DNA from: Escherichia coli
GTDB lineage: Bacteria > Pseudomonadota > Gammaproteobacteria > Enterobacterales > Enterobacteriaceae
Direction: 5' to 3' (one strand)
Length of the DNA: 64,000 bases
NCBI RefSeq assembly: GCF_048403405.1
Contig: NZ_CP183129.1
The notes beneath the pieces were generated by a model. The model searched no databases, was not told the origin of the DNA, and saw only the letters and a program-made list of their open reading frames with translations. This document shows, piece after piece, positions 36,972 through 53,587 of the stretch (positions are counted from its first letter, which is position 1; every line of letters starts with the position of its first letter). A program made the translations under genes and the position numbers.

Positions 36972-37199
36972 GAATCCTCCCGGGCGGGATAATGTTGTGA
37001 GTCAGATAAGGAGCAGGCTGAAGTCCGGAAGTTACAGGACAATGGCAGAAGGGAGACTACAGCCCGCAATTCGAAAAAGACCGCGCAGTTGCGCAGAGTG
37101 ATTACTATGGGGTATTATTCGCCAGCTGAAATATTACTTCACGTTTTATTGTTTATTCCTTGCCGCCCGCGTCTCCCAGCGCGGGCTTTTTTTGTCCAT

Positions 37200-37440
37200 A
37201 AGAAAGCCCCTCCGGAGAGGGGCTAAAGCCGCGTATCTGTATCATCATGCACATGGTGCCGGGTGCCTCCCGGTGAGTTCAGCCCGGTGCCACTAAACCC
37301 GCGTCATTCTCGTTTTGATAATCAGAGATTATACCGTCACCAGTCGCCCCTCCGCTCAGGGGGATTCACCATGCGAAATTTTTTTAACAAATGCCCAGTC
37401 TGACAGGCAACTGTCAACTTACTGAATTGTGAGCAACATA
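37200..37440. repeat. Structured repeat copy 1 (~240 bp) in the tRNA-to-nanS spacer
   Basis: Shares blocks aaagcccctccggagaggggct, catggtgccgggtgcctcccggtga, gcccctccgc.cagggggattcaccatgc, ctgaattgtgag with copy 2. Confidence 0.75.
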
Positions 37441-37685
37441 GCATTTAACGGGGAACCTGTTTTCTGCAGTAAAAAGGCCCACCGGAGCGGATGGGCCTGG
37501 AAGGATAGCGGTCATGTGATGCCGGTTTCCCGGTAACTCAGCACCGGTATCTGAGTCAACGTTTTCTCTACTGGGTCATTTCCGATACGCCCTGCCTGCT
37601 GACAGGCTTTCATCACATCTGAAAATATAGCACCCTGACTGATACTGTAGTACCTAAGGTTCCAGAAACTGTGATGTATCCGGCA

Positions 37686-37905
37686 CAGAAAAGCCCCTCC
37701 GGAGAGGGGCTGGAGAGTGGCGCTATGTGCCATTGCATGGTGCCGGGTGCCTCCCGGTGAATTCAGTACCAGCACCTGAATCCGCGATTATCCCATATAC
37801 CTACTCGCTGATTGCCCCTCCGCACAGGGGGATTCACCATGCCAGTTTCTTTTAACAAACTCCCCGCAAACCAGACAACAGTCAACCGCCTGAATTGTGA
37901 GACAT
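37686..37905. repeat. Structured repeat copy 2 (~220 bp)
   Basis: Paralogous to 37200-37440 with the same conserved hairpins. Confidence 0.75.
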
Positions 37906-37946
37906 TTAAAAAAAAGCCCGCAAAAGCGAGCCAGGGAAAATAAGTG

Positions 37947-38023
37947 TGGCGCGTTGTACTGGATTCGAACCAGTGACCGATTGCTTAGAAGGCAATTGCT
38001 CTGTCCGGCTGAGCTAACAACGC
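37947..38023 (-). tRNA. argO: tRNA-Arg (anticodon TCT)
   Basis: Clean cloverleaf read by hand: acceptor gcgttgt/acaacgc, D-stem gctc/gagc, anticodon loop cttctaa, T-loop ttcgaat, 3' CCA encoded. Confidence 0.85.
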
Positions 38024-38036
38024 AGGATACAGATAA

Positions 38037-38113
38037 TGGACCGCCTTCGGGGACCCGAACTCCGCGCAACCAGCTTCGAAGGCTGGCGCTCTTTCCTGAT
38101 GAGCTAATGGCGG
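38037..38113 (-). tRNA. tRNA-like gene, possibly tRNA-Arg (anticodon TCG), imperfect stems
   Basis: Cloverleaf can be drawn (anticodon loop cttcgaa) but acceptor and T stems each have a mismatch and the T-loop lacks the usual A58. Confidence 0.5.
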
Positions 38114-38120
38114 TATGTGA

Positions 38121-38196
38121 TGGTGGCCCTTGCTGGATTTGAACCAGCGACCTGGCGATTATGAGTCGCTCGCTCTCACCACTGAGCTAAAGGGCC
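38121..38196 (-). tRNA. ileZ: tRNA-Ile2-type (anticodon CAT)
   Basis: ggccctttagctcagtggtgagagc...ctcataa...ggttcaaatccagcaagggccacca; closely resembles ileX-type tRNA. Confidence 0.85.
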
Positions 38197-42770: not shown

Positions 42771-42992
42771 TTATTCCCGAACTACCTTGAAACCGAGTCT
42801 TTCCAAGTATTCAATGAATGCCTCAACAGATAACACTACATGATCATCAGGAATTAACGCTGTGTAGGTAATACCCCCATTCTCAACGCGCACAGCATAG
42901 AGGCCATCTTCACTAAAAATTTCACGTAATTCTTCGATTTTCATCAACAGAATCCTTCCAGATAAATAGCACTCCCCCTGTTCGGGGTCCAT
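42771..42992 (-). CDS. Hypothetical phage protein
   Basis: 73 aa ORF. Confidence 0.4.
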   Translation of the reverse strand: MDPEQGECYLSGRILLMKIEELREIFSEDGLYAVRVENGGITYTALIPDDHVVLSVEAFIEYLERLGFKVVRE

Positions 42993-43074: not shown

Positions 43075-43096
43075 ACAAAAAACCCGCCGAAGCGGG
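43075..43096 (-). terminator. Intrinsic terminator after the XRE-peptidase gene
   Basis: Late strand cccgcttcggcggg followed by TTTTTTGTTTTT; same hairpin as at 44912-44936. Confidence 0.7.
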
Positions 43097-43101
43097 TATA
43101 C

Positions 43102-44208
43102 TCAAACAATCTGGAAAATATTTCTTGGATTTGTAATAGGTCTGTTGATGGAGAACAACTCACGAATTAAATCTTGGCTCAAGCCAGTTTTCATAAGAAT
43201 TCTTAGCCAGGTTGCATCATCCAGCATTTCAATCGCCTCGGCCAGCATGCCGGGTTCTTCAGGGCGCAAAAGTTCATCACCAGGTTCAACTCTCGTATAC
43301 CCTCTGGAATTAAGATGCATATAGCCAGTTCTTGCCTGTTCCTGGGTCAATAAGCCTAATGCGCTGGCTCGATAAATACACATTTTAAGGCTGATTTTCC
43401 ATCTAAGTTTAAATTCAACCAGAGCATTCCAGTCGAATTGCTTACCTCGTATTCGTGGAAATTCTTTAATGAAAGATAACCTGGGAACTAATAAGGCGCT
43501 CGAAAAGTGATCGGCTTGTGATTCCGTAAGTTTATCACCTGTCGTTATGCCCTCATGCATTACTAAATGCCCTAATTCATGACCTAAATCAGAGCGAAAT
43601 CTACATATGCTTTTTTTAACATTGTTCCTGATGATAACAGGCCTGTTATTGTGAACAGTAAAAGCATCAACACGATCATCGACTCCCGTAACATGCGCAA
43701 CGATTACCCCTAAACTCTCCGCCAATTTAACCATTGATGATATAGGGCCAAGACCTAAATTCCAGGCACGGCGACAATCTTCTGCCACTCGCTCAATATC
43801 ATTCGGAGTAAGTAATTCAGCCCCTGGGTGCTCCGGTATGTTAACGTCAGGAAATTCGATTTCACCTTCAACAGCAGAAATTATAATATTAAGAATCTCA
43901 GCCCTGGCCAATACACTATTAGTCAGCGTTTGAGTCCTGGACTTCTTACTCCGAAAATGGCAGACATCACTTTCCAGAGCGTATTTTCGTTCAGTAAAAA
44001 GAAAACTGGACTTAATCATAAGCGCTGAAGATATTAACTCAAGACATTGCTCCGATGGCCTGCACCCCTTCTCCAGTTTGCTAACGAATTGCTTTGTCTT
44101 GCCAATTTTTTCGGCTAACTCTTCACAAGAAAGCCCAACAGCCATTCTCGCTAGTTTGAGCTTATCACCCCGATACTCAGTGAAGTTATTCACCTGATGT
44201 TCCATCAC
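43102..44208 (-). CDS. XRE-family HTH regulator fused to ImmA/IrrE-type (COG2856) zinc metallopeptidase
   Basis: 368 aa; N-terminal HTH (LKLARMAVGLSCEELAEKIGKTKQFVSKLEKG), C-terminal HEXXH (HELGHLVMH); AT-rich. Confidence 0.75.
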   Translation of the reverse strand: MMEHQVNNFTEYRGDKLKLARMAVGLSCEELAEKIGKTKQFVSKLEKGCRPSEQCLELISSALMIKSSFLFTERKYALESDVCHFRSKKSRTQTLTNSVLARAEILNIIISAVEGEIEFPDVNIPEHPGAELLTPNDIERVAEDCRRAWNLGLGPISSMVKLAESLGVIVAHVTGVDDRVDAFTVHNNRPVIIRNNVKKSICRFRSDLGHELGHLVMHEGITTGDKLTESQADHFSSALLVPRLSFIKEFPRIRGKQFDWNALVEFKLRWKISLKMCIYRASALGLLTQEQARTGYMHLNSRGYTRVEPGDELLRPEEPGMLAEAIEMLDDATWLRILMKTGLSQDLIRELFSINRPITNPRNIFQIV

Positions 44209-44836
44209 TGCTCACATCCAAATCTTTATCCTTCGTACGCCGACGAAGAGGCACCTTATTAATCTCCGCTTCGTCAGGGAGTGTGTTATAATCAAGAGGC
44301 ATAAGCGGCATCGATGCTGTAGATTGATGAGAAACTATACTAATCTGAGCACCATAAGTATTAAATCCAACAAGAGCTACCTCCCAACGAGGCAGTGTGG
44401 ACTCTAATTCACCATCGCCCTCTTCGGATAAAAAAGGCTCAGCTATGACTCGCCATGTAATATCTTGCTCAGCCTCAACATCACCAAACAATGAGAGCTG
44501 CTCATACTCTACTTTATTTCGACGCAGACGATGTTTCTTTTTGGGGTTATTAATGCAATCTTTGGTAAATTGTAGCGGAACTTTATTTAAAGCAACTACA
44601 TAGTCCAACCCCTTGGAAATCATCTCAAGGCCAGGAATTGCATCTTCATTTTGAATAAGATGATTTCTGACCCAATCATAAGCCCTTACACCTTCAGACC
44701 AGTTGCTGTCTAATGCGTGCTTATGATAGTACAGCTGCTCAAGTACGTTAGCGATCTCCGCCAACAAGTGGCGAACATAGTTTTCAGCAAGATAAGGTTG
44801 AAATTCCCAACAAGGAGCTAACTGATTTTCATTCAT
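44186..44836 (-). CDS. Uncharacterized protein (216 aa), upstream partner of the XRE-peptidase gene
   Basis: ORF overlaps the downstream gene by 23 nt; TTGACA -35 element upstream; no recognisable motif. Confidence 0.55.
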   Translation of the reverse strand: MNENQLAPCWEFQPYLAENYVRHLLAEIANVLEQLYYHKHALDSNWSEGVRAYDWVRNHLIQNEDAIPGLEMISKGLDYVVALNKVPLQFTKDCINNPKKKHRLRRNKVEYEQLSLFGDVEAEQDITWRVIAEPFLSEEGDGELESTLPRWEVALVGFNTYGAQISIVSHQSTASMPLMPLDYNTLPDEAEINKVPLRRRTKDKDLDVSSDGTSGE

Positions 44837-44911
44837 TTCAAGTTTCGCTTTTTTTAGAATTCGTAAACCACATATTTTCGCATTTTTCTATTTTTGTCAA
44901 CCAGACTAATG

Positions 44912-44936
44912 CAAAAACCCGCCGAAGCGGGTTAAG
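44912..44936 (-). terminator. Intrinsic terminator after hok
   Basis: cccgcttcggcggg hairpin followed by T-run on the late strand. Confidence 0.7.
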
Positions 44937-45001
44937 TGCGGGTGCGTTGAGGATGCCTGGCACATCAGAGGTGGCGGGAGATTACTCCCCCGCCGGGTCT
45001 C

Positions 45002-45157
45002 TTACTCCTCAGGTTCGTAAGCTGTGAAGACAGCGACCTCCGTCTGGCCGGTTCGGATTCGTACCTCGCAGAGGTCTTTCCTCGTTACCAGTGCCGTCAC
45101 AATGACGGTTAAACAGATGACGATCAGGGCGATTAACATCGCCTTTTGCTGCTTCAT
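45002..45157 (-). CDS. hokD: Hok/Gef-family type I toxin (HokD/RelF-like, 51 aa)
   Basis: MKQQKAMLIALIVICLTVIVTALVTRKDLCEVRIRTGQTEVAVFTAYEPEE matches HokD; track ORF has an in-frame upstream extension. Confidence 0.85.
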   Translation of the reverse strand: MKQQKAMLIALIVICLTVIVTALVTRKDLCEVRIRTGQTEVAVFTAYEPEE

Positions 45158-45394
45158 AGCCTGCTTCCCCTTGCCTTTCGGCACGTAAGAGGCTAACCTA
45201 CATTTGTGAGACATAGATTGGGCCTCAGATTAATGTTAAGCGTCTTGCAGGACGCGAAATGTTAACTGGGGCTTTTCTCTATCTGCCTTTCAGTGTTCAT
45301 GCCTGAGACAGATAGCCTCAAGCACCCGCAGCCATTCTACTTAACTCACGTCACCTCGCCAATATGAAATCAATCAGAAAGGTGATCCATAAAA

Positions 45395-46081
45395 TCACTC
45401 CTTCTCTTCTTTTCCGTAGTGGAGTTGGCCAATTTTGATAAGAGGGCGTCCCTGAGATTTGCGGTGTAGATTGGTATCGCGCAGAGAATACACACAGCCA
45501 CAATATTCCTGCTGATAGAATTTTTCGCGCTTGCTGATTTCAATCATACGGGACGAGCCGCCCTGCTTGCGCCAGTTATAATCCCAGTACACCATACCCG
45601 GATAATGCGCAACAGCTCGCCGCCCACACTCGTTAACCTGCTGCATATTTTTCCAGCGTGAAATGCCCAGTGAACTGCTGATCACACTGAAACCATTTTC
45701 AGCAGCGTACAACGCTGTCCGCTCAAAACGCATGTCAAAACACATGGTACAACGGATCCCCCTCTCAGGCTCCCATTCCATTCCTTTGGCACGTTCAAAC
45801 CAGTTGTCGGTGTCGTAATCAGCATCGATAAACGGCACGCCGTGTTGTTCAGCAAAGCGAATATTTTCATCCTTACGAATTAAATACTCTTTCTGAGGAT
45901 GAATGTTCGGGTTGTAGAAAAAGATGGTGTAGTCGATTCCCGAGGCCTGAAGCGCCTCCATCACTTCACCGGAACATGGAGCACAGCAAGAGTGCAGTAG
46001 TAGTTTGTTTGCCCCGTTTGGGAGCTCCAATTTAGGCCGTTTGAAATCAGCAATAGTCATAAATATTTTTATTGGGGTCAT
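45395..46081 (-). CDS. QueH-like (DUF208) putative epoxyqueuosine reductase
   Basis: Conserved Cys motifs [12 protein letters not shown] and YCGCVYS; start ambiguous (M at 46081 or 46060); family call from memory. Confidence 0.55.
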
Positions 46082-46135
46082 GAAAATAGCACAGAGTGTA
46101 GCATCAGAGTGTACTGACCCCAAAAAGTTGGACAG

Positions 46136-46987
46136 TTAAACACGAGGCATATAGGTCTGATTCCGATATTCAATTGGAGTCAGACCTTTTAATTTCAGGC
46201 TAATTCTTCTGCTGTTGTAGTATTCAATATATTCCGTAACAGCATCCTTCAGTTCGCTTATATTACTGAACTCATCAAGATAAAAACACTCCGACTTTAA
46301 GGTTCCAAAGAAACACTCCACCACAGCATTATCCAGACAATTGCCTTTTCTGGACATGCTTTGTTTAATACCATGTTCTTTAAGGATATTTTGATATCTT
46401 CTCATACGATACTGCCATCCCTGGTCAGAGTGCAGAACAGGATGCTCGTGAGGATTAAGCTTTTTGAATGCCTGATCGAGCATATTCTCAACCATGTTCA
46501 TCACTGGTCTTTCCGAAAGGCTGTAAGAAATAACTTCGTTGTTGAAGAGATCTATTACTGGAGACAAATACAGCTTGCGCCCATTGACTGCAAATTCAGT
46601 AACATCGGTAACCCACTTCTCGTTTGGCCGCGTAGCCTTGAAATCTCTTTGGAGAACATTAGGGGCGGTTTGCCCTACCTCTCCTCTGTAAGAGCGGTAT
46701 CGCTTGACCTTAATCGCTGCTTTAAGTGAGAGGGTTCCCATCAGGCGCTGAACAGCTTTATGGTTAATCTGTTTCCCTTCTCGATGAAGAGACAGCGTTA
46801 CCCTACGGTATCCGTATCGGCCTCTATTCTCGTGATAAATCTCACTAATACGCTTTTTAACGTCCGCATACTTGTCAGGCTTGCTGAGAGCCTTTAGATG
46901 ATAATAAAACGTACTGCGCGGTATCTCCGCAGCCCTGAGAAGCTCATCAAGAGGATAAAACTGCCTTAGCTCGTTGAGTACTTTCAC
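46136..46987 (-). CDS. insK: IS150 transposase OrfB (DDE domain)
   Basis: 283 aa; ...[48 protein letters not shown]... Confidence 0.9.
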
Positions 46988-47505
46988 TTTTTCGTGGGAT
47001 GAGCTAAGGCTTTCAGCTTTTTTAGATACATAAGCCGCGTTTCAAGAAATCGAACTTGCCTTTCAAGATCCTCAATGCGTCGGTCTTTTGACAGCTCCAA
47101 TGCTGATGCCGCTTTTTCTGGATCAACTGATATTGCAATGTTTCTTTTGGTGCCAATCTTGAGCGCGCGTAAACCAGCTTCTCCGCGCTCTTCATAGACC
47201 TTCAGCCACCTGGCTACAGAACCACTACCAGCAAGCATAAAGTGAGCAGCAGCCTGATTAAGGGACATGTGCTGCTCGATCACAGCTTTCACGACCTTAA
47301 TACGCAACTCTGGATCAGCACTAACGCCTTTAGGTTTGGGAATTAAACCTTTTTCTCCATGTTTTTCATAGAGGGCAACCCATGTCCTGACCTGGGTTCG
47401 GGGGACACCAAAACGTGCCGAGATGATCCTGTAACCATCATCAGTTGTGAAGTAGTGATTCACGACTTCAAGGCGCTTTTCAAAAGGGTATTTTGGCTTT
47501 GACAT
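46984..47505 (-). CDS. insJ: IS150 transposase OrfA (HTH)
   Basis: 173 aa MSKPKYPFEKRLEVVNHYFTTDDGYRIISARFGVPRTQVRTWVALYEKHG...; 4 nt overlap with orfB. Confidence 0.9.
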   Translation of the reverse strand: MSKPKYPFEKRLEVVNHYFTTDDGYRIISARFGVPRTQVRTWVALYEKHGEKGLIPKPKGVSADPELRIKVVKAVIEQHMSLNQAAAHFMLAGSGSVARWLKVYEERGEAGLRALKIGTKRNIAISVDPEKAASALELSKDRRIEDLERQVRFLETRLMYLKKLKALAHPTKK

Positions 47506-47680
47506 ATTAGGGGCTATTCCATTTCATCGTCCAACAAAATGGGTGCAGTACAGAGCAGGGCTATCGGGAATATATGTCTAAATCTGGTAATATCTGGTTT
47601 TGACGCAAAGCGGACAACCACGCTGGCTCTACCCTGCGCCATGAAAATGTCAATTCACATCTGAACTAATGCTCTTTAAT

Positions 47681-53529: not shown

Positions 53530-53587
53530 TTTCTGGTGACATTTGGCGGTATCAGTTTTACTCCGTGACTGCTCTGCCGCCCTTTTT
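53530..53587 (+). ncRNA. dicF: DicF small RNA (cell-division inhibitor sRNA)
   Basis: tttctggtgacatttggcggtatcagttttactccgtgactgctctgccgccc + T-run matches the remembered DicF sequence; lies upstream of dicB. Confidence 0.7.

What the first reader, a model, noticed from the sequence alone, without database searches (positions are those of the whole stretch)
45002..45394. hokD-type toxin gene without relBE and upstream of a different two-gene module
The Hok peptide is identical to the remembered HokD/RelF sequence and has a typical structured 5' leader region. In K-12 Qin, hokD is the third gene of relB-relE-hokD; here relBE is absent and the XRE-peptidase module lies downstream instead. Whether this hok is regulated by a Sok-like antisense RNA or is silent is unclear.
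Basis: partly seen in the sequence, partly recalled or inferred. Interest (0 to 1): 0.3.

Follow-up and report, generated by a model that had tools for sequence, protein, structure and literature searches.

The report
Complete prophage hok/sok toxin-antitoxin locus

Summary
Window 45002-45157 (- strand) encodes a 51-aa Hok peptide identical to K-12 HokD, relBE is absent from all 64 kb, and an HTH/peptidase two-gene module lies downstream.

The open question (Sok-regulated or silent?) is answered at sequence level. The locus, 44912-45362, carries every canonical hok/sok element:
- its own promoter;
- the 5' tac element, which pairs with the 3' fbi element;
- a metastable 5' hairpin and the alternative tac-ucb stem;
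- an in-frame 70-codon mok;
- an antisense Sok gene on the + strand (45206-45276), with a promoter identical to the mutationally tested sokW promoter;
- a terminator.

The leader scores 120.5 bits on Rfam RF01794. The locus is 93% identical to hokW-sokW of Sp5/933W, a proven type I toxin-antitoxin system.

K-12 shares only 44912-45171. There, relBE replaces the leader, the mok start and Sok, so K-12 is the rearranged form. The leader occurs in 4238 of 5426 complete E. coli genomes, against 1165 with the relE-hokD junction.

The downstream module is a RosmerTA defence cassette inserted after the hok terminator.

Verdict: already known, low interest. Expression and toxicity were not tested.

The parts
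45334..45362 (-). hok promoter: -35 TTGGCG (45362-45357), 17-nt spacer, -10 TAGAAT (45339-45334)
   Evidence: This was the only sigma-70-like site in 44800-45500. The -10 TAGAAT or a near variant is conserved in all 12 aligned loci. It sits 7 nt upstream of the inferred transcript start at 45327.
44912..45327 (-). Full-length hok mRNA (~416 nt; the start is inferred from the -10 element and from position 1 of the Rfam model, the end from the terminator)
   Evidence: The MFE is -167 kcal/mol, with z = -5.3 against shuffles. On 12 homologous loci 90.8% of cells are paired, against 35-42% when partners are slid. Fifteen pairs carry double-sided changes, against 4-8 in the slid controls.
45316..45327 (-). 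tac (translational activator) element, GGGUGCUUGAGG, at the mRNA 5' end
   Evidence: It is invariant in 12 of 12 loci. It pairs with fbi in the full-length fold. It pairs with the sequence immediately downstream in the first 35 nt, forming the metastable hairpin at -16.9 kcal/mol. It pairs with AAGC-CCC (ucb) in the first 60 nt, as in the Rfam consensus.
45002..45214 (-). mok reading frame (70 codons, in frame with hok and containing it); SD GAGG at 45226-45223
   Evidence: It appears in the ORF list. The product MSHKCRLASYVPKGKGKQA-Hok compares with annotated MokW MLNTCRLASYVPKGKEKQA-HokW.
45002..45157 (-). hok toxin ORF (51 aa), preceded by the SD-like AAGGGGAAG (45170-45162)
   Evidence: It is identical to K-12 HokD and matches Pfam PF01848 at 3e-23. 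PGAP annotates it as hokD in the 100%-identical strain 118UI.
45171..45199 (+). Sok promoter: -35 TTGCCT (45171-45176), 17-nt spacer, -10 TAACCT (45194-45199)
   Evidence: It is base-for-base identical to the corresponding 933W/Sp5 sequence. In Sp5 the sokW '-10' mutant primer YO-421 replaces AGGTTA (the reverse complement of TAACCT), and this abolished antitoxin activity (PMC8621323). The generic promoter scan did not call it, because the -10 matches only 3 of 6 positions.
45206..45276 (+). Sok antisense RNA (71 nt): single-stranded 5' tail complementary to the mok start and SD, a long hairpin, and a U-rich 3' end
   Evidence: Coordinates were transferred from the sokW misc_RNA annotation of 933W and VT2-Sakai. 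The two RNAs have the same length. Four of the seven substitutions lie in the 5' tail and three in the hairpin. The fold gives -29.6 kcal/mol with z = -4.8, as a tail plus hairpin plus U-tract.
44973..44994 (-). Stem-loop just after the hok stop codon; by analogy with R1, the 3' hairpin of the processed (truncated) mRNA
   Evidence: It is helix 15 of the fold, with compensatory changes (AU<->GC) at two pairs across the 12 loci. Its role is inferred from PMC9841398.
44940..44952 (-). fbi (fold-back inhibition) element, CCUCAACGCACCC, complementary to tac
   Evidence: It forms helix 1 of both the MFE and the centroid structures. It is 94.4% paired across the 12 loci. The changes seen are single-sided (mainly C->U, giving G-U); the unpaired cells come from the two loci whose 3' UTR was replaced.
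44916..44933 (-). Intrinsic terminator of hok mRNA (AACCCGCTTCGGCGGGTT followed by TTTTG)
   Evidence: It was called by the terminator scan. It is shared with K-12 and most prophage copies.

Best explanation
Window 44912-45362 is a complete hok/mok/sok type I toxin-antitoxin locus of the hokD/hokW allele group. It lies in the early-right (replication-to-Q) region of a lambdoid prophage integrated next to ompW.

The mechanism below is inferred from the R1 paradigm and from hokW-sokW; it was not measured here.
- The hok promoter makes a stable ~416-nt mRNA. Its 5' tac element is locked to the 3' fbi element, so neither ribosomes nor Sok can act on it.
- While the mRNA is being transcribed, a metastable 5' hairpin prevents premature translation.
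- Slow 3' trimming removes fbi. tac then switches to the ucb partner, which exposes the mok ribosome-binding site and the Sok target.
- Hok is translated only through coupling to mok.
- The 71-nt Sok RNA is unstable and made constitutively from the opposite strand. It pairs with the mok start region, and the duplex is cleaved by RNase III.
- When Sok synthesis stops, through loss of the element or prophage induction, processed hok mRNA is translated. The 51-aa Hok peptide then damages the inner membrane.

The K-12 relB-relE-hokD arrangement is a derivative in which relBE replaced everything upstream of the hok SD.
For: The following are shown.
- The Hok peptide is identical to HokD and matches Pfam HOK_GEF.
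- The leader scores 120.5 bits on Rfam RF01794.
- tac-fbi closure appears in both the MFE and the centroid structures.
- The metastable hairpin and the tac-ucb stem are predicted for the 35-nt and 60-nt 5' fragments.
- The structure holds on 12 loci, with 90.8% of cells paired against about 40% when slid, and compensatory changes in excess.
- The mok ORF is intact and homologous to the annotated mokW.
- The Sok promoter is identical to that of sokW, and Sok folds as a tail plus hairpin plus U-tract.
- The locus is 93% identical to hokW-sokW. For that locus, toxin activity, antitoxin activity, dependence on the -10 element, and RNase III/Hfq involvement were shown experimentally (PMC8621323).
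- K-12 homology stops at 45171.
- No IS element lies inside the locus.

The mechanism is taken from PMC9841398.
Against: - Nothing here measures transcription, processing or toxicity.
- The Sok -10 element is weak by consensus (3 of 6) and the generic promoter scan missed it.
- The hok SD carries GGGG where most copies have GGAG. In the window's fold this adds a C-G pair to a helix covering the SD, which could lower Hok output.
- The MFE of the truncated mRNA prefers the metastable hairpin over the tac-ucb stem by 3.3 kcal/mol.
- Native chromosomal hokA, hokB and hokC loci did not give post-segregational killing in earlier work (cited in bioRxiv 10.1101/2025.08.07.668861).
Confidence: 0.88

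Rival explanations
1. The locus is structurally complete but physiologically inert. Both hok and Sok are transcribed, yet Hok is never released in amounts that matter. On this view it is a selfish passenger of the prophage, giving no post-segregational killing, no help with lysis and no phage exclusion.
For: Native chromosomal hokA, hokB and hokC loci failed to mediate post-segregational killing or respond to rifampicin in earlier work, as summarised. The SD variant GGAG->GGGG, with an added pair over the SD, may weaken translation further.
Against: The 93%-identical hokW-sokW is active in its native prophage. Sok disappears and HokW accumulates on induction, and deleting the locus halves phage release (PMC8621323). 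All regulatory elements are conserved, with compensatory changes, across phages, plasmids and chromosomes, which argues for selection on function. The GGGG allele occurs as an exact 61-mer in 492 records.
Confidence: 0.15
2. hok is expressed here mainly as the distal part of a longer operon transcript that reads through from QueH and the prophage early-right operon. This would resemble relBEF in K-12, with the Sok/leader system playing only a minor role.
For: hok has the same orientation as the replication genes, QueH, RosmerTA, DUF968, RusA and Q. Only 33 nt separate the QueH stop (45395) from the hok -35 element, and no terminator was detected between them.
Against: The locus has its own conserved promoter. 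Its transcript start coincides with an invariant tac element that must be at the 5' end to work. Homologous loci sit behind many unrelated upstream genes, including paa, ABC-three-component genes, repL of P1 and 933W late-region genes, so the unit is autonomous. In this window an IS150 lies 50 bp upstream of QueH and probably interrupts early-operon read-through.
Confidence: 0.07
3. One reading: an orphan hokD that has lost its relBE partners and may lack any antitoxin control.
For: relBE is indeed absent from the window.
Against: relBE is a separate type II system and is not the regulator of hok. K-12 is the copy that lacks the leader, the mok start and Sok. The window has all of them, including the Sok gene.
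Confidence: 0.02

Closest known systems
hokW-mokW-sokW of Stx2 prophages Sp5 (VT2-Sakai) and 933W
   Same: It has the same architecture and 93% nucleotide identity over ~410 nt. The tac, fbi, Sok -35/-10 elements and spacer are identical, Sok is the same 71-nt length, and Hok is 51 aa with residues 1-44 identical. It was shown experimentally to be a type I TA system that assists lysis and phage release on induction (PMC8621323).
   Different: The Hok C-terminus is TAYEPEE here against VDYESEK. The Mok N-terminus and four bases of the Sok 5' tail differ, as do three bases in the hairpin. The hok SD is GGGG against GGAG. The window and K-12 copies end in a terminator hairpin that 933W lacks. The position in the phage genome also differs: here it lies between the replication genes and Q, whereas in 933W it lies near the right attachment end.
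hokD (relF) of the relBEF operon, Qin prophage, E. coli K-12
   Same: The Hok peptide is identical. The two share 97.7% identity over 260 bp, covering the SD, ORF, 3' hairpin, fbi and terminator. Both lie in a homologous prophage neighbourhood with a DUF968 gene, Q, dicB and ydfABC.
   Different: K-12 lacks the hok promoter, tac, ucb, the mok start and the Sok gene and promoter. relB-relE occupies that position instead. K-12 goes from the hok terminator straight to rem, whereas the window has RosmerTA inserted there.
hok/sok (parB) of plasmid R1, the family prototype
   Same: It shares the same set of elements and the same three alternative pairings of tac: metastable, tac-fbi and tac-ucb (mechanism from PMC9841398). 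Both fall in the same Rfam and Pfam families.
   Different: The sequences are divergent: HokW, which matches the window's Hok at 46 of 51 residues, is 44% identical to R1 Hok (PMC8621323). R1 is plasmid-borne and serves plasmid maintenance. I did not align R1 directly; the comparison runs through the Rfam model and the literature.
hokC/mokC/sokC (gef) of the E. coli chromosome
   Same: It is about 75-77% identical over the whole locus, with conserved tac and fbi and an in-frame mok.
   Different: It sits at a fixed chromosomal site between dnaJ and nhaA rather than in a prophage. Its Sok hairpin region is shorter.

Membership tests
[quoted passage not shown] | Small hydrophobic Hok/Gef-family toxin peptide | tested here: met
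   Pfam PF01848 HOK_GEF scores 3e-23 and 81.6 bits against a cutoff of 22. The peptide is identical to HokD, WP_000813254.1.
[quoted passage not shown] | Overlapping mok reading frame with its own SD, starting upstream of hok | tested here: met
   A 70-codon ORF runs 45214-45002, with GAGG 8 nt upstream of its start. It is homologous to the annotated mokW.
[quoted passage not shown] | Cis-encoded antisense Sok gene (promoter, 5' tail over the mok start region, hairpin and U-tract) | tested here: met
   The promoter TTGCCT-17-TAACCT is identical to the sokW promoter tested by mutation. The 71-nt RNA folds as a tail plus hairpin with z = -4.8. This is sequence-level evidence only.
[quoted passage not shown] | Leader RNA fits the family covariance model | tested here: met
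   Rfam RF01794 gives 120.5 bits against a gathering score of 59, over the full model 1-157, at 45152-45327. The model matches the hok-sense strand.
[quoted passage not shown] | Long-range 5' tac / 3' fbi pairing that closes the full-length mRNA | tested here: met
   A 12-bp helix joins 45327-45316 to 44952-44940 in both the MFE and the centroid structures. It is 94.4% paired across the 12 loci.
[quoted passage not shown] | Alternative tac pairings (metastable 5' hairpin; tac-ucb stem of the processed mRNA) | tested here: met
   Both are MFE structures, for the 35-nt and 60-nt 5' fragments respectively. In the 372-nt truncated RNA the tac-ucb form lies 3.3 kcal/mol above the MFE.
[quoted passage not shown] | Hok toxicity, Sok antitoxin activity, and 3' processing of hok mRNA | not testable with these tools
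   These are known only for homologues. HokD peptide toxicity is reported in bioRxiv 10.1101/2025.08.07.668861, and hokW-sokW activity in PMC8621323.
relBEF (relB-relE-hokD) operon of Qin | relB and relE immediately upstream of hokD, in one operon | tested here: not met
   RelB and RelE have no tblastn hit better than E = 1.4 in the window. The upstream neighbour is QueH.
RosmerTA defence/TA system (downstream neighbour, not part of hok/sok) | Two genes: toxin RmrT, followed by antitoxin RmrA with an HTH and a Zn-peptidase domain | tested here: met
   PADLOC RmrT matches the 216-aa ORF at 4.6e-25 and RmrA matches the 368-aa ORF at 6.2e-105. Pfam finds HTH_3 and Peptidase_M78. The system definition comes from bioRxiv 10.1101/2022.05.11.491447. 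The phage-defence phenotype was not tested.

The most novel reading that the evidence does not exclude
The QueH - hok/sok - RosmerTA stretch could be a co-selected accessory islet of the prophage early region. In it, hok/sok would act with RosmerTA as an abortive-infection or lysis-timing device. The recurrent GGGG allele, which changes the SD and causes Mok E16G, would retune how much Hok is released. The IS150 upstream would uncouple the islet from early-operon read-through.
Probability: 0.1. Interest if true: 0.3.

Novelty: already known. Interest (0 to 1): 0.08.

Why it matters
The finding has little importance beyond correct annotation. It shows that the textbook K-12 hokD is the truncated exception, and that most E. 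coli genomes carry the full hokD/hokW-type hok/sok unit in prophages. PGAP labels only the 51-aa CDS; mok, Sok and the leader go unannotated, which is why a reader working from K-12 memory could think regulation was missing. Prophage hok/sok loci are of some current interest for lysis timing and phage defence (PMC8621323; bioRxiv 10.1101/2025.08.07.668861). This copy adds no new principle.

Tried and rejected
- I searched the whole window for RelB, RelE and Rem by tblastn. There is no relBE, and only the N-terminal 26 residues of a Rem-like ORF at 42870-42947.
- The generic promoter scan found the hok promoter but not the Sok promoter, because the Sok -10 matches only 3 of 6 positions. Sok was instead placed by homology to the annotated and mutationally tested sokW.
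- Permissive Rfam hits to rsmX and isrK in the 3' UTR (E = 0.16-0.23, far below the gathering scores) are just the terminator hairpin and were dismissed.
- I looked for tac-fbi covariation. Both elements are nearly invariant, so the helix is supported by conservation and G-U changes only, not by double compensations. Compensatory support comes from other helices.
- The MFE of the truncated mRNA did not reproduce the tac-ucb stem. Enforcing the stem costs 3.3 kcal/mol, and the 60-nt fragment adopts it on its own.
- I did not fetch R1 hok/sok DNA. blastn from this locus does not reach it.
- I considered that the IS150 might inactivate hok, as IS elements do at hokA, hokC and hokE in K-12. It lies about 750 bp upstream of the hok promoter, beyond QueH and outside the locus.

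Full report
**Observation**

The - strand ORF 45157->45002 encodes MKQQKAMLIALIVICLTVIVTALVTRKDLCEVRIRTGQTEVAVFTAYEPEE.
- It is identical to K-12 HokD.
- It carries the same RefSeq protein accession in a 100%-identical genome (E. coli 118UI) and in a K-12 derivative.
- It matches Pfam HOK_GEF at 3e-23.

In K-12 the order relB-relE-hokD-rem is confirmed. RelB and RelE have no credible match anywhere in the 64-kb window (best E = 1.4). Downstream of hok lie a 216-aa ORF and a 368-aa HTH + Peptidase_M78 ORF. The given interval leaves out the 3' UTR (44912-45001), which is part of the unit.

**Anatomy**

Reading the - strand, the locus contains:
- **hok promoter.** TTGGCG-17-TAGAAT at 45362-45334 is the only sigma-70-like site in the region. 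It places the transcript start at about 45327.
- **Leader.** The RNA begins GGGUGCUUGAGG. From that base to the hok AUG it fits Rfam RF01794 end to end, at 120.5 bits against a gathering score of 59. This Rfam "sok" model matches the hok-sense strand, not the antisense strand.
- **mok.** A 70-codon ORF starts at 45214, with GAGG 8 nt upstream, and runs in frame through hok.
- **3' UTR.** After the stop codon come a GC-rich hairpin (44994-44973), the sequence CCUCAACGCACCC (44952-44940) and an intrinsic terminator (44933-44916).
- **Sok.** On the + strand, TTGCCT-17-TAACCT (45171-45199) precedes a 71-nt RNA (45206-45276). This RNA folds as a single-stranded 5' tail, a long hairpin and a U-tract (-29.6 kcal/mol, z = -4.8). 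Its 5' part is complementary to the mok start codon and SD.

**RNA switch**

The 416-nt mRNA folds with z = -5.3. In both the MFE and the centroid structures its first 12 nt pair with 44952-44940, giving the tac-fbi closure. The first 35 nt alone form a hairpin in which tac pairs with the sequence just downstream (-16.9 kcal/mol). The first 60 nt form the tac-ucb stem drawn in the Rfam consensus.

These are the three states of the R1 hok mRNA model summarised in PMC9841398: metastable, closed full-length and open truncated. In the 372-nt truncated RNA the tac-ucb form lies 3.3 kcal/mol above the MFE. That is a caveat, not a contradiction.

I projected the window's MFE structure onto an alignment of 12 loci from phages, plasmids, other prophages and hokC.
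- 90.8% of cells are paired, against 35-42% when partners are slid.
- 15 pairs carry double-sided changes, against 4-8 in the slid controls.
- tac is invariant and fbi varies mainly by C->U.

**Relatives**

The region is 93% identical to hokW-mokW-sokW of 933W and VT2-Sakai/Sp5, where sokW is annotated as a 71-nt antisense RNA. The Sok -35 element, spacer and -10 element are identical between the window and 933W.

In Sp5 the "promoter-less" sokW mutant was made with primer YO-421, which replaces AGGTTA, the complement of TAACCT. This mutant unmasked HokW toxicity. The same paper shows several further results (PMC8621323):
- RNase III and Hfq are involved in antitoxin activity.
- Sok is lost and HokW accumulates on prophage induction.
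- Phage release drops two-fold when the locus is deleted.

The HokD peptide itself was among the toxic controls in a recent survey, which also found hok enriched in prophages (bioRxiv 10.1101/2025.08.07.668861).

**What K-12 really has**

K-12 matches the window only over 44912-45171, at 97.7% identity. The match begins 14 nt upstream of the hok AUG. Upstream of that point K-12 has the 3' end of relE. K-12 therefore lacks the hok promoter, tac, ucb, the mok start and the whole Sok gene. This agrees with the published statement that K-12 hokD was inactivated by a genomic rearrangement (PMC12214031, citing Pedersen & Gerdes 1999).

Counts in 5426 complete E. coli genomes:

| Feature | Genomes |
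|---|---|
| Leader/Sok segment absent from K-12 hokD, at >=80% coverage | 4238 |
| relE-hokD junction | 1165 |
| hok-RosmerTA junction | 231 |

"hokD without relBE" is thus the usual state. Some leader matches may come from other hok paralogues. Most are 90-95% identical.

**Context**

The window is the same ompW-adjacent lambdoid prophage as in strain 118UI, at 99.98-100% identity. The exception is an IS150 at 46110-47550.

The gene order on the - strand is: replication genes, DUF1627, DUF977, [IS150], QueH, hok/sok, RosmerTA, a Rem-like ORF, a hypothetical ORF, DUF968, RusA, Q. In related phages the hok terminator is followed directly by rem.

Here a 1.8-kb cassette (43098-44911) sits between two copies of the terminator hairpin, at 43076-43097 and 44912-44932. 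Its two proteins hit PADLOC RmrT (4.6e-25) and RmrA (6.2e-105). This is the RosmerTA defence/TA system, with a Zn-peptidase antitoxin (bioRxiv 10.1101/2022.05.11.491447). It is a separate unit with its own terminator, not a partner of hok.

**Caveats**

- No expression data exist for this locus.
- The Sok -10 element is weak by consensus.
- The hok SD reads GGGG where most copies have GGAG (position 45167, also causing Mok E16G). In the window's fold this adds a C-G pair over the SD. The exact 61-mer occurs in 492 records, so it is a standing allele rather than a lesion.
- Chromosomal hok loci tested earlier did not give post-segregational killing, so physiological inertness remains a rival, at about 0.15.
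- Read-through from QueH is possible, but the autonomous, conserved promoter and tac start argue against it as the main mode.

**Verdict**

This is a correctly spotted but ordinary feature: a complete, already-described kind of prophage hok/mok/sok locus. Novelty: already known. Interest: low.

Noticed in passing
window 43098-44911 (rmrT 44186-44836 -, rmrA 43102-44208 -); repeats at 43076-43097 and 44912-44932: The two-gene module downstream of hok is a RosmerTA defence/TA cassette (PADLOC RmrT 4.6e-25, RmrA 6.2e-105). It sits between two copies of the hok terminator hairpin. K-12 and several phages go straight from that terminator to rem. The hok-RosmerTA junction occurs in 231 of 5426 E. 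coli genomes.
   Followed up: partly
window 46110-47550: An IS150 copy (99.9-100% identical to copies annotated as the IS150 family) is inserted 50 bp upstream of the QueH start. It is absent from the otherwise 99.98-100% identical prophage of strain 118UI. It probably interrupts early-operon read-through into QueH, hok and RosmerTA.
   Followed up: partly
window 45167 (- strand G): The hok Shine-Dalgarno reads AAGGGGAAG instead of the usual AAGGAGAAG, which also changes Mok residue 16 from E to G. In the window's predicted fold the G pairs with C in a CCCC/GGGG helix. The exact 61-mer is present in 492 E. coli records.
   Followed up: partly
window 45017-45019 (Hok Tyr47 codon TAC within UUACGAA): The UACG motif targeted by TadA A-to-I mRNA editing in hok genes is conserved here. 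PMC12214031 reports low-level editing of K-12 hokD that recodes Tyr to Cys.
   Followed up: no
window 45152-45327: The Rfam family RF01794, named 'sok antitoxin', matches the hok-sense leader strand and ends at the hok AUG. The real Sok is on the opposite strand. Automatic annotation from this model would give the wrong strand for the antitoxin.
   Followed up: yes
window 45395-46060 (-): An epoxyqueuosine reductase QueH homologue (Pfam 9.6e-66) lies immediately upstream of hok, as a prophage accessory gene. Its stop codon is only 33 nt from the hok -35 element.
   Followed up: no
window 37194-38196 (-), 53531-53582 (+), 7671-7869 (-): Other Rfam gathering-level hits are two STnc100 copies flanking three tRNA genes downstream of Q, DicF antisense RNA in the immunity-side dicB region, and IS009.
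   Followed up: no
L013 (plasmid pAH25-2) and L009 (phage 666R9): Two hokD-type copies lose homology just after the stop codon and so lack fbi. pAH25-2 has an IS421 transposase gene about 190 bp downstream of hok. These look like 3'-disrupted hok loci, comparable to the IS-inactivated hokA, hokC and hokE of K-12.
   Followed up: no
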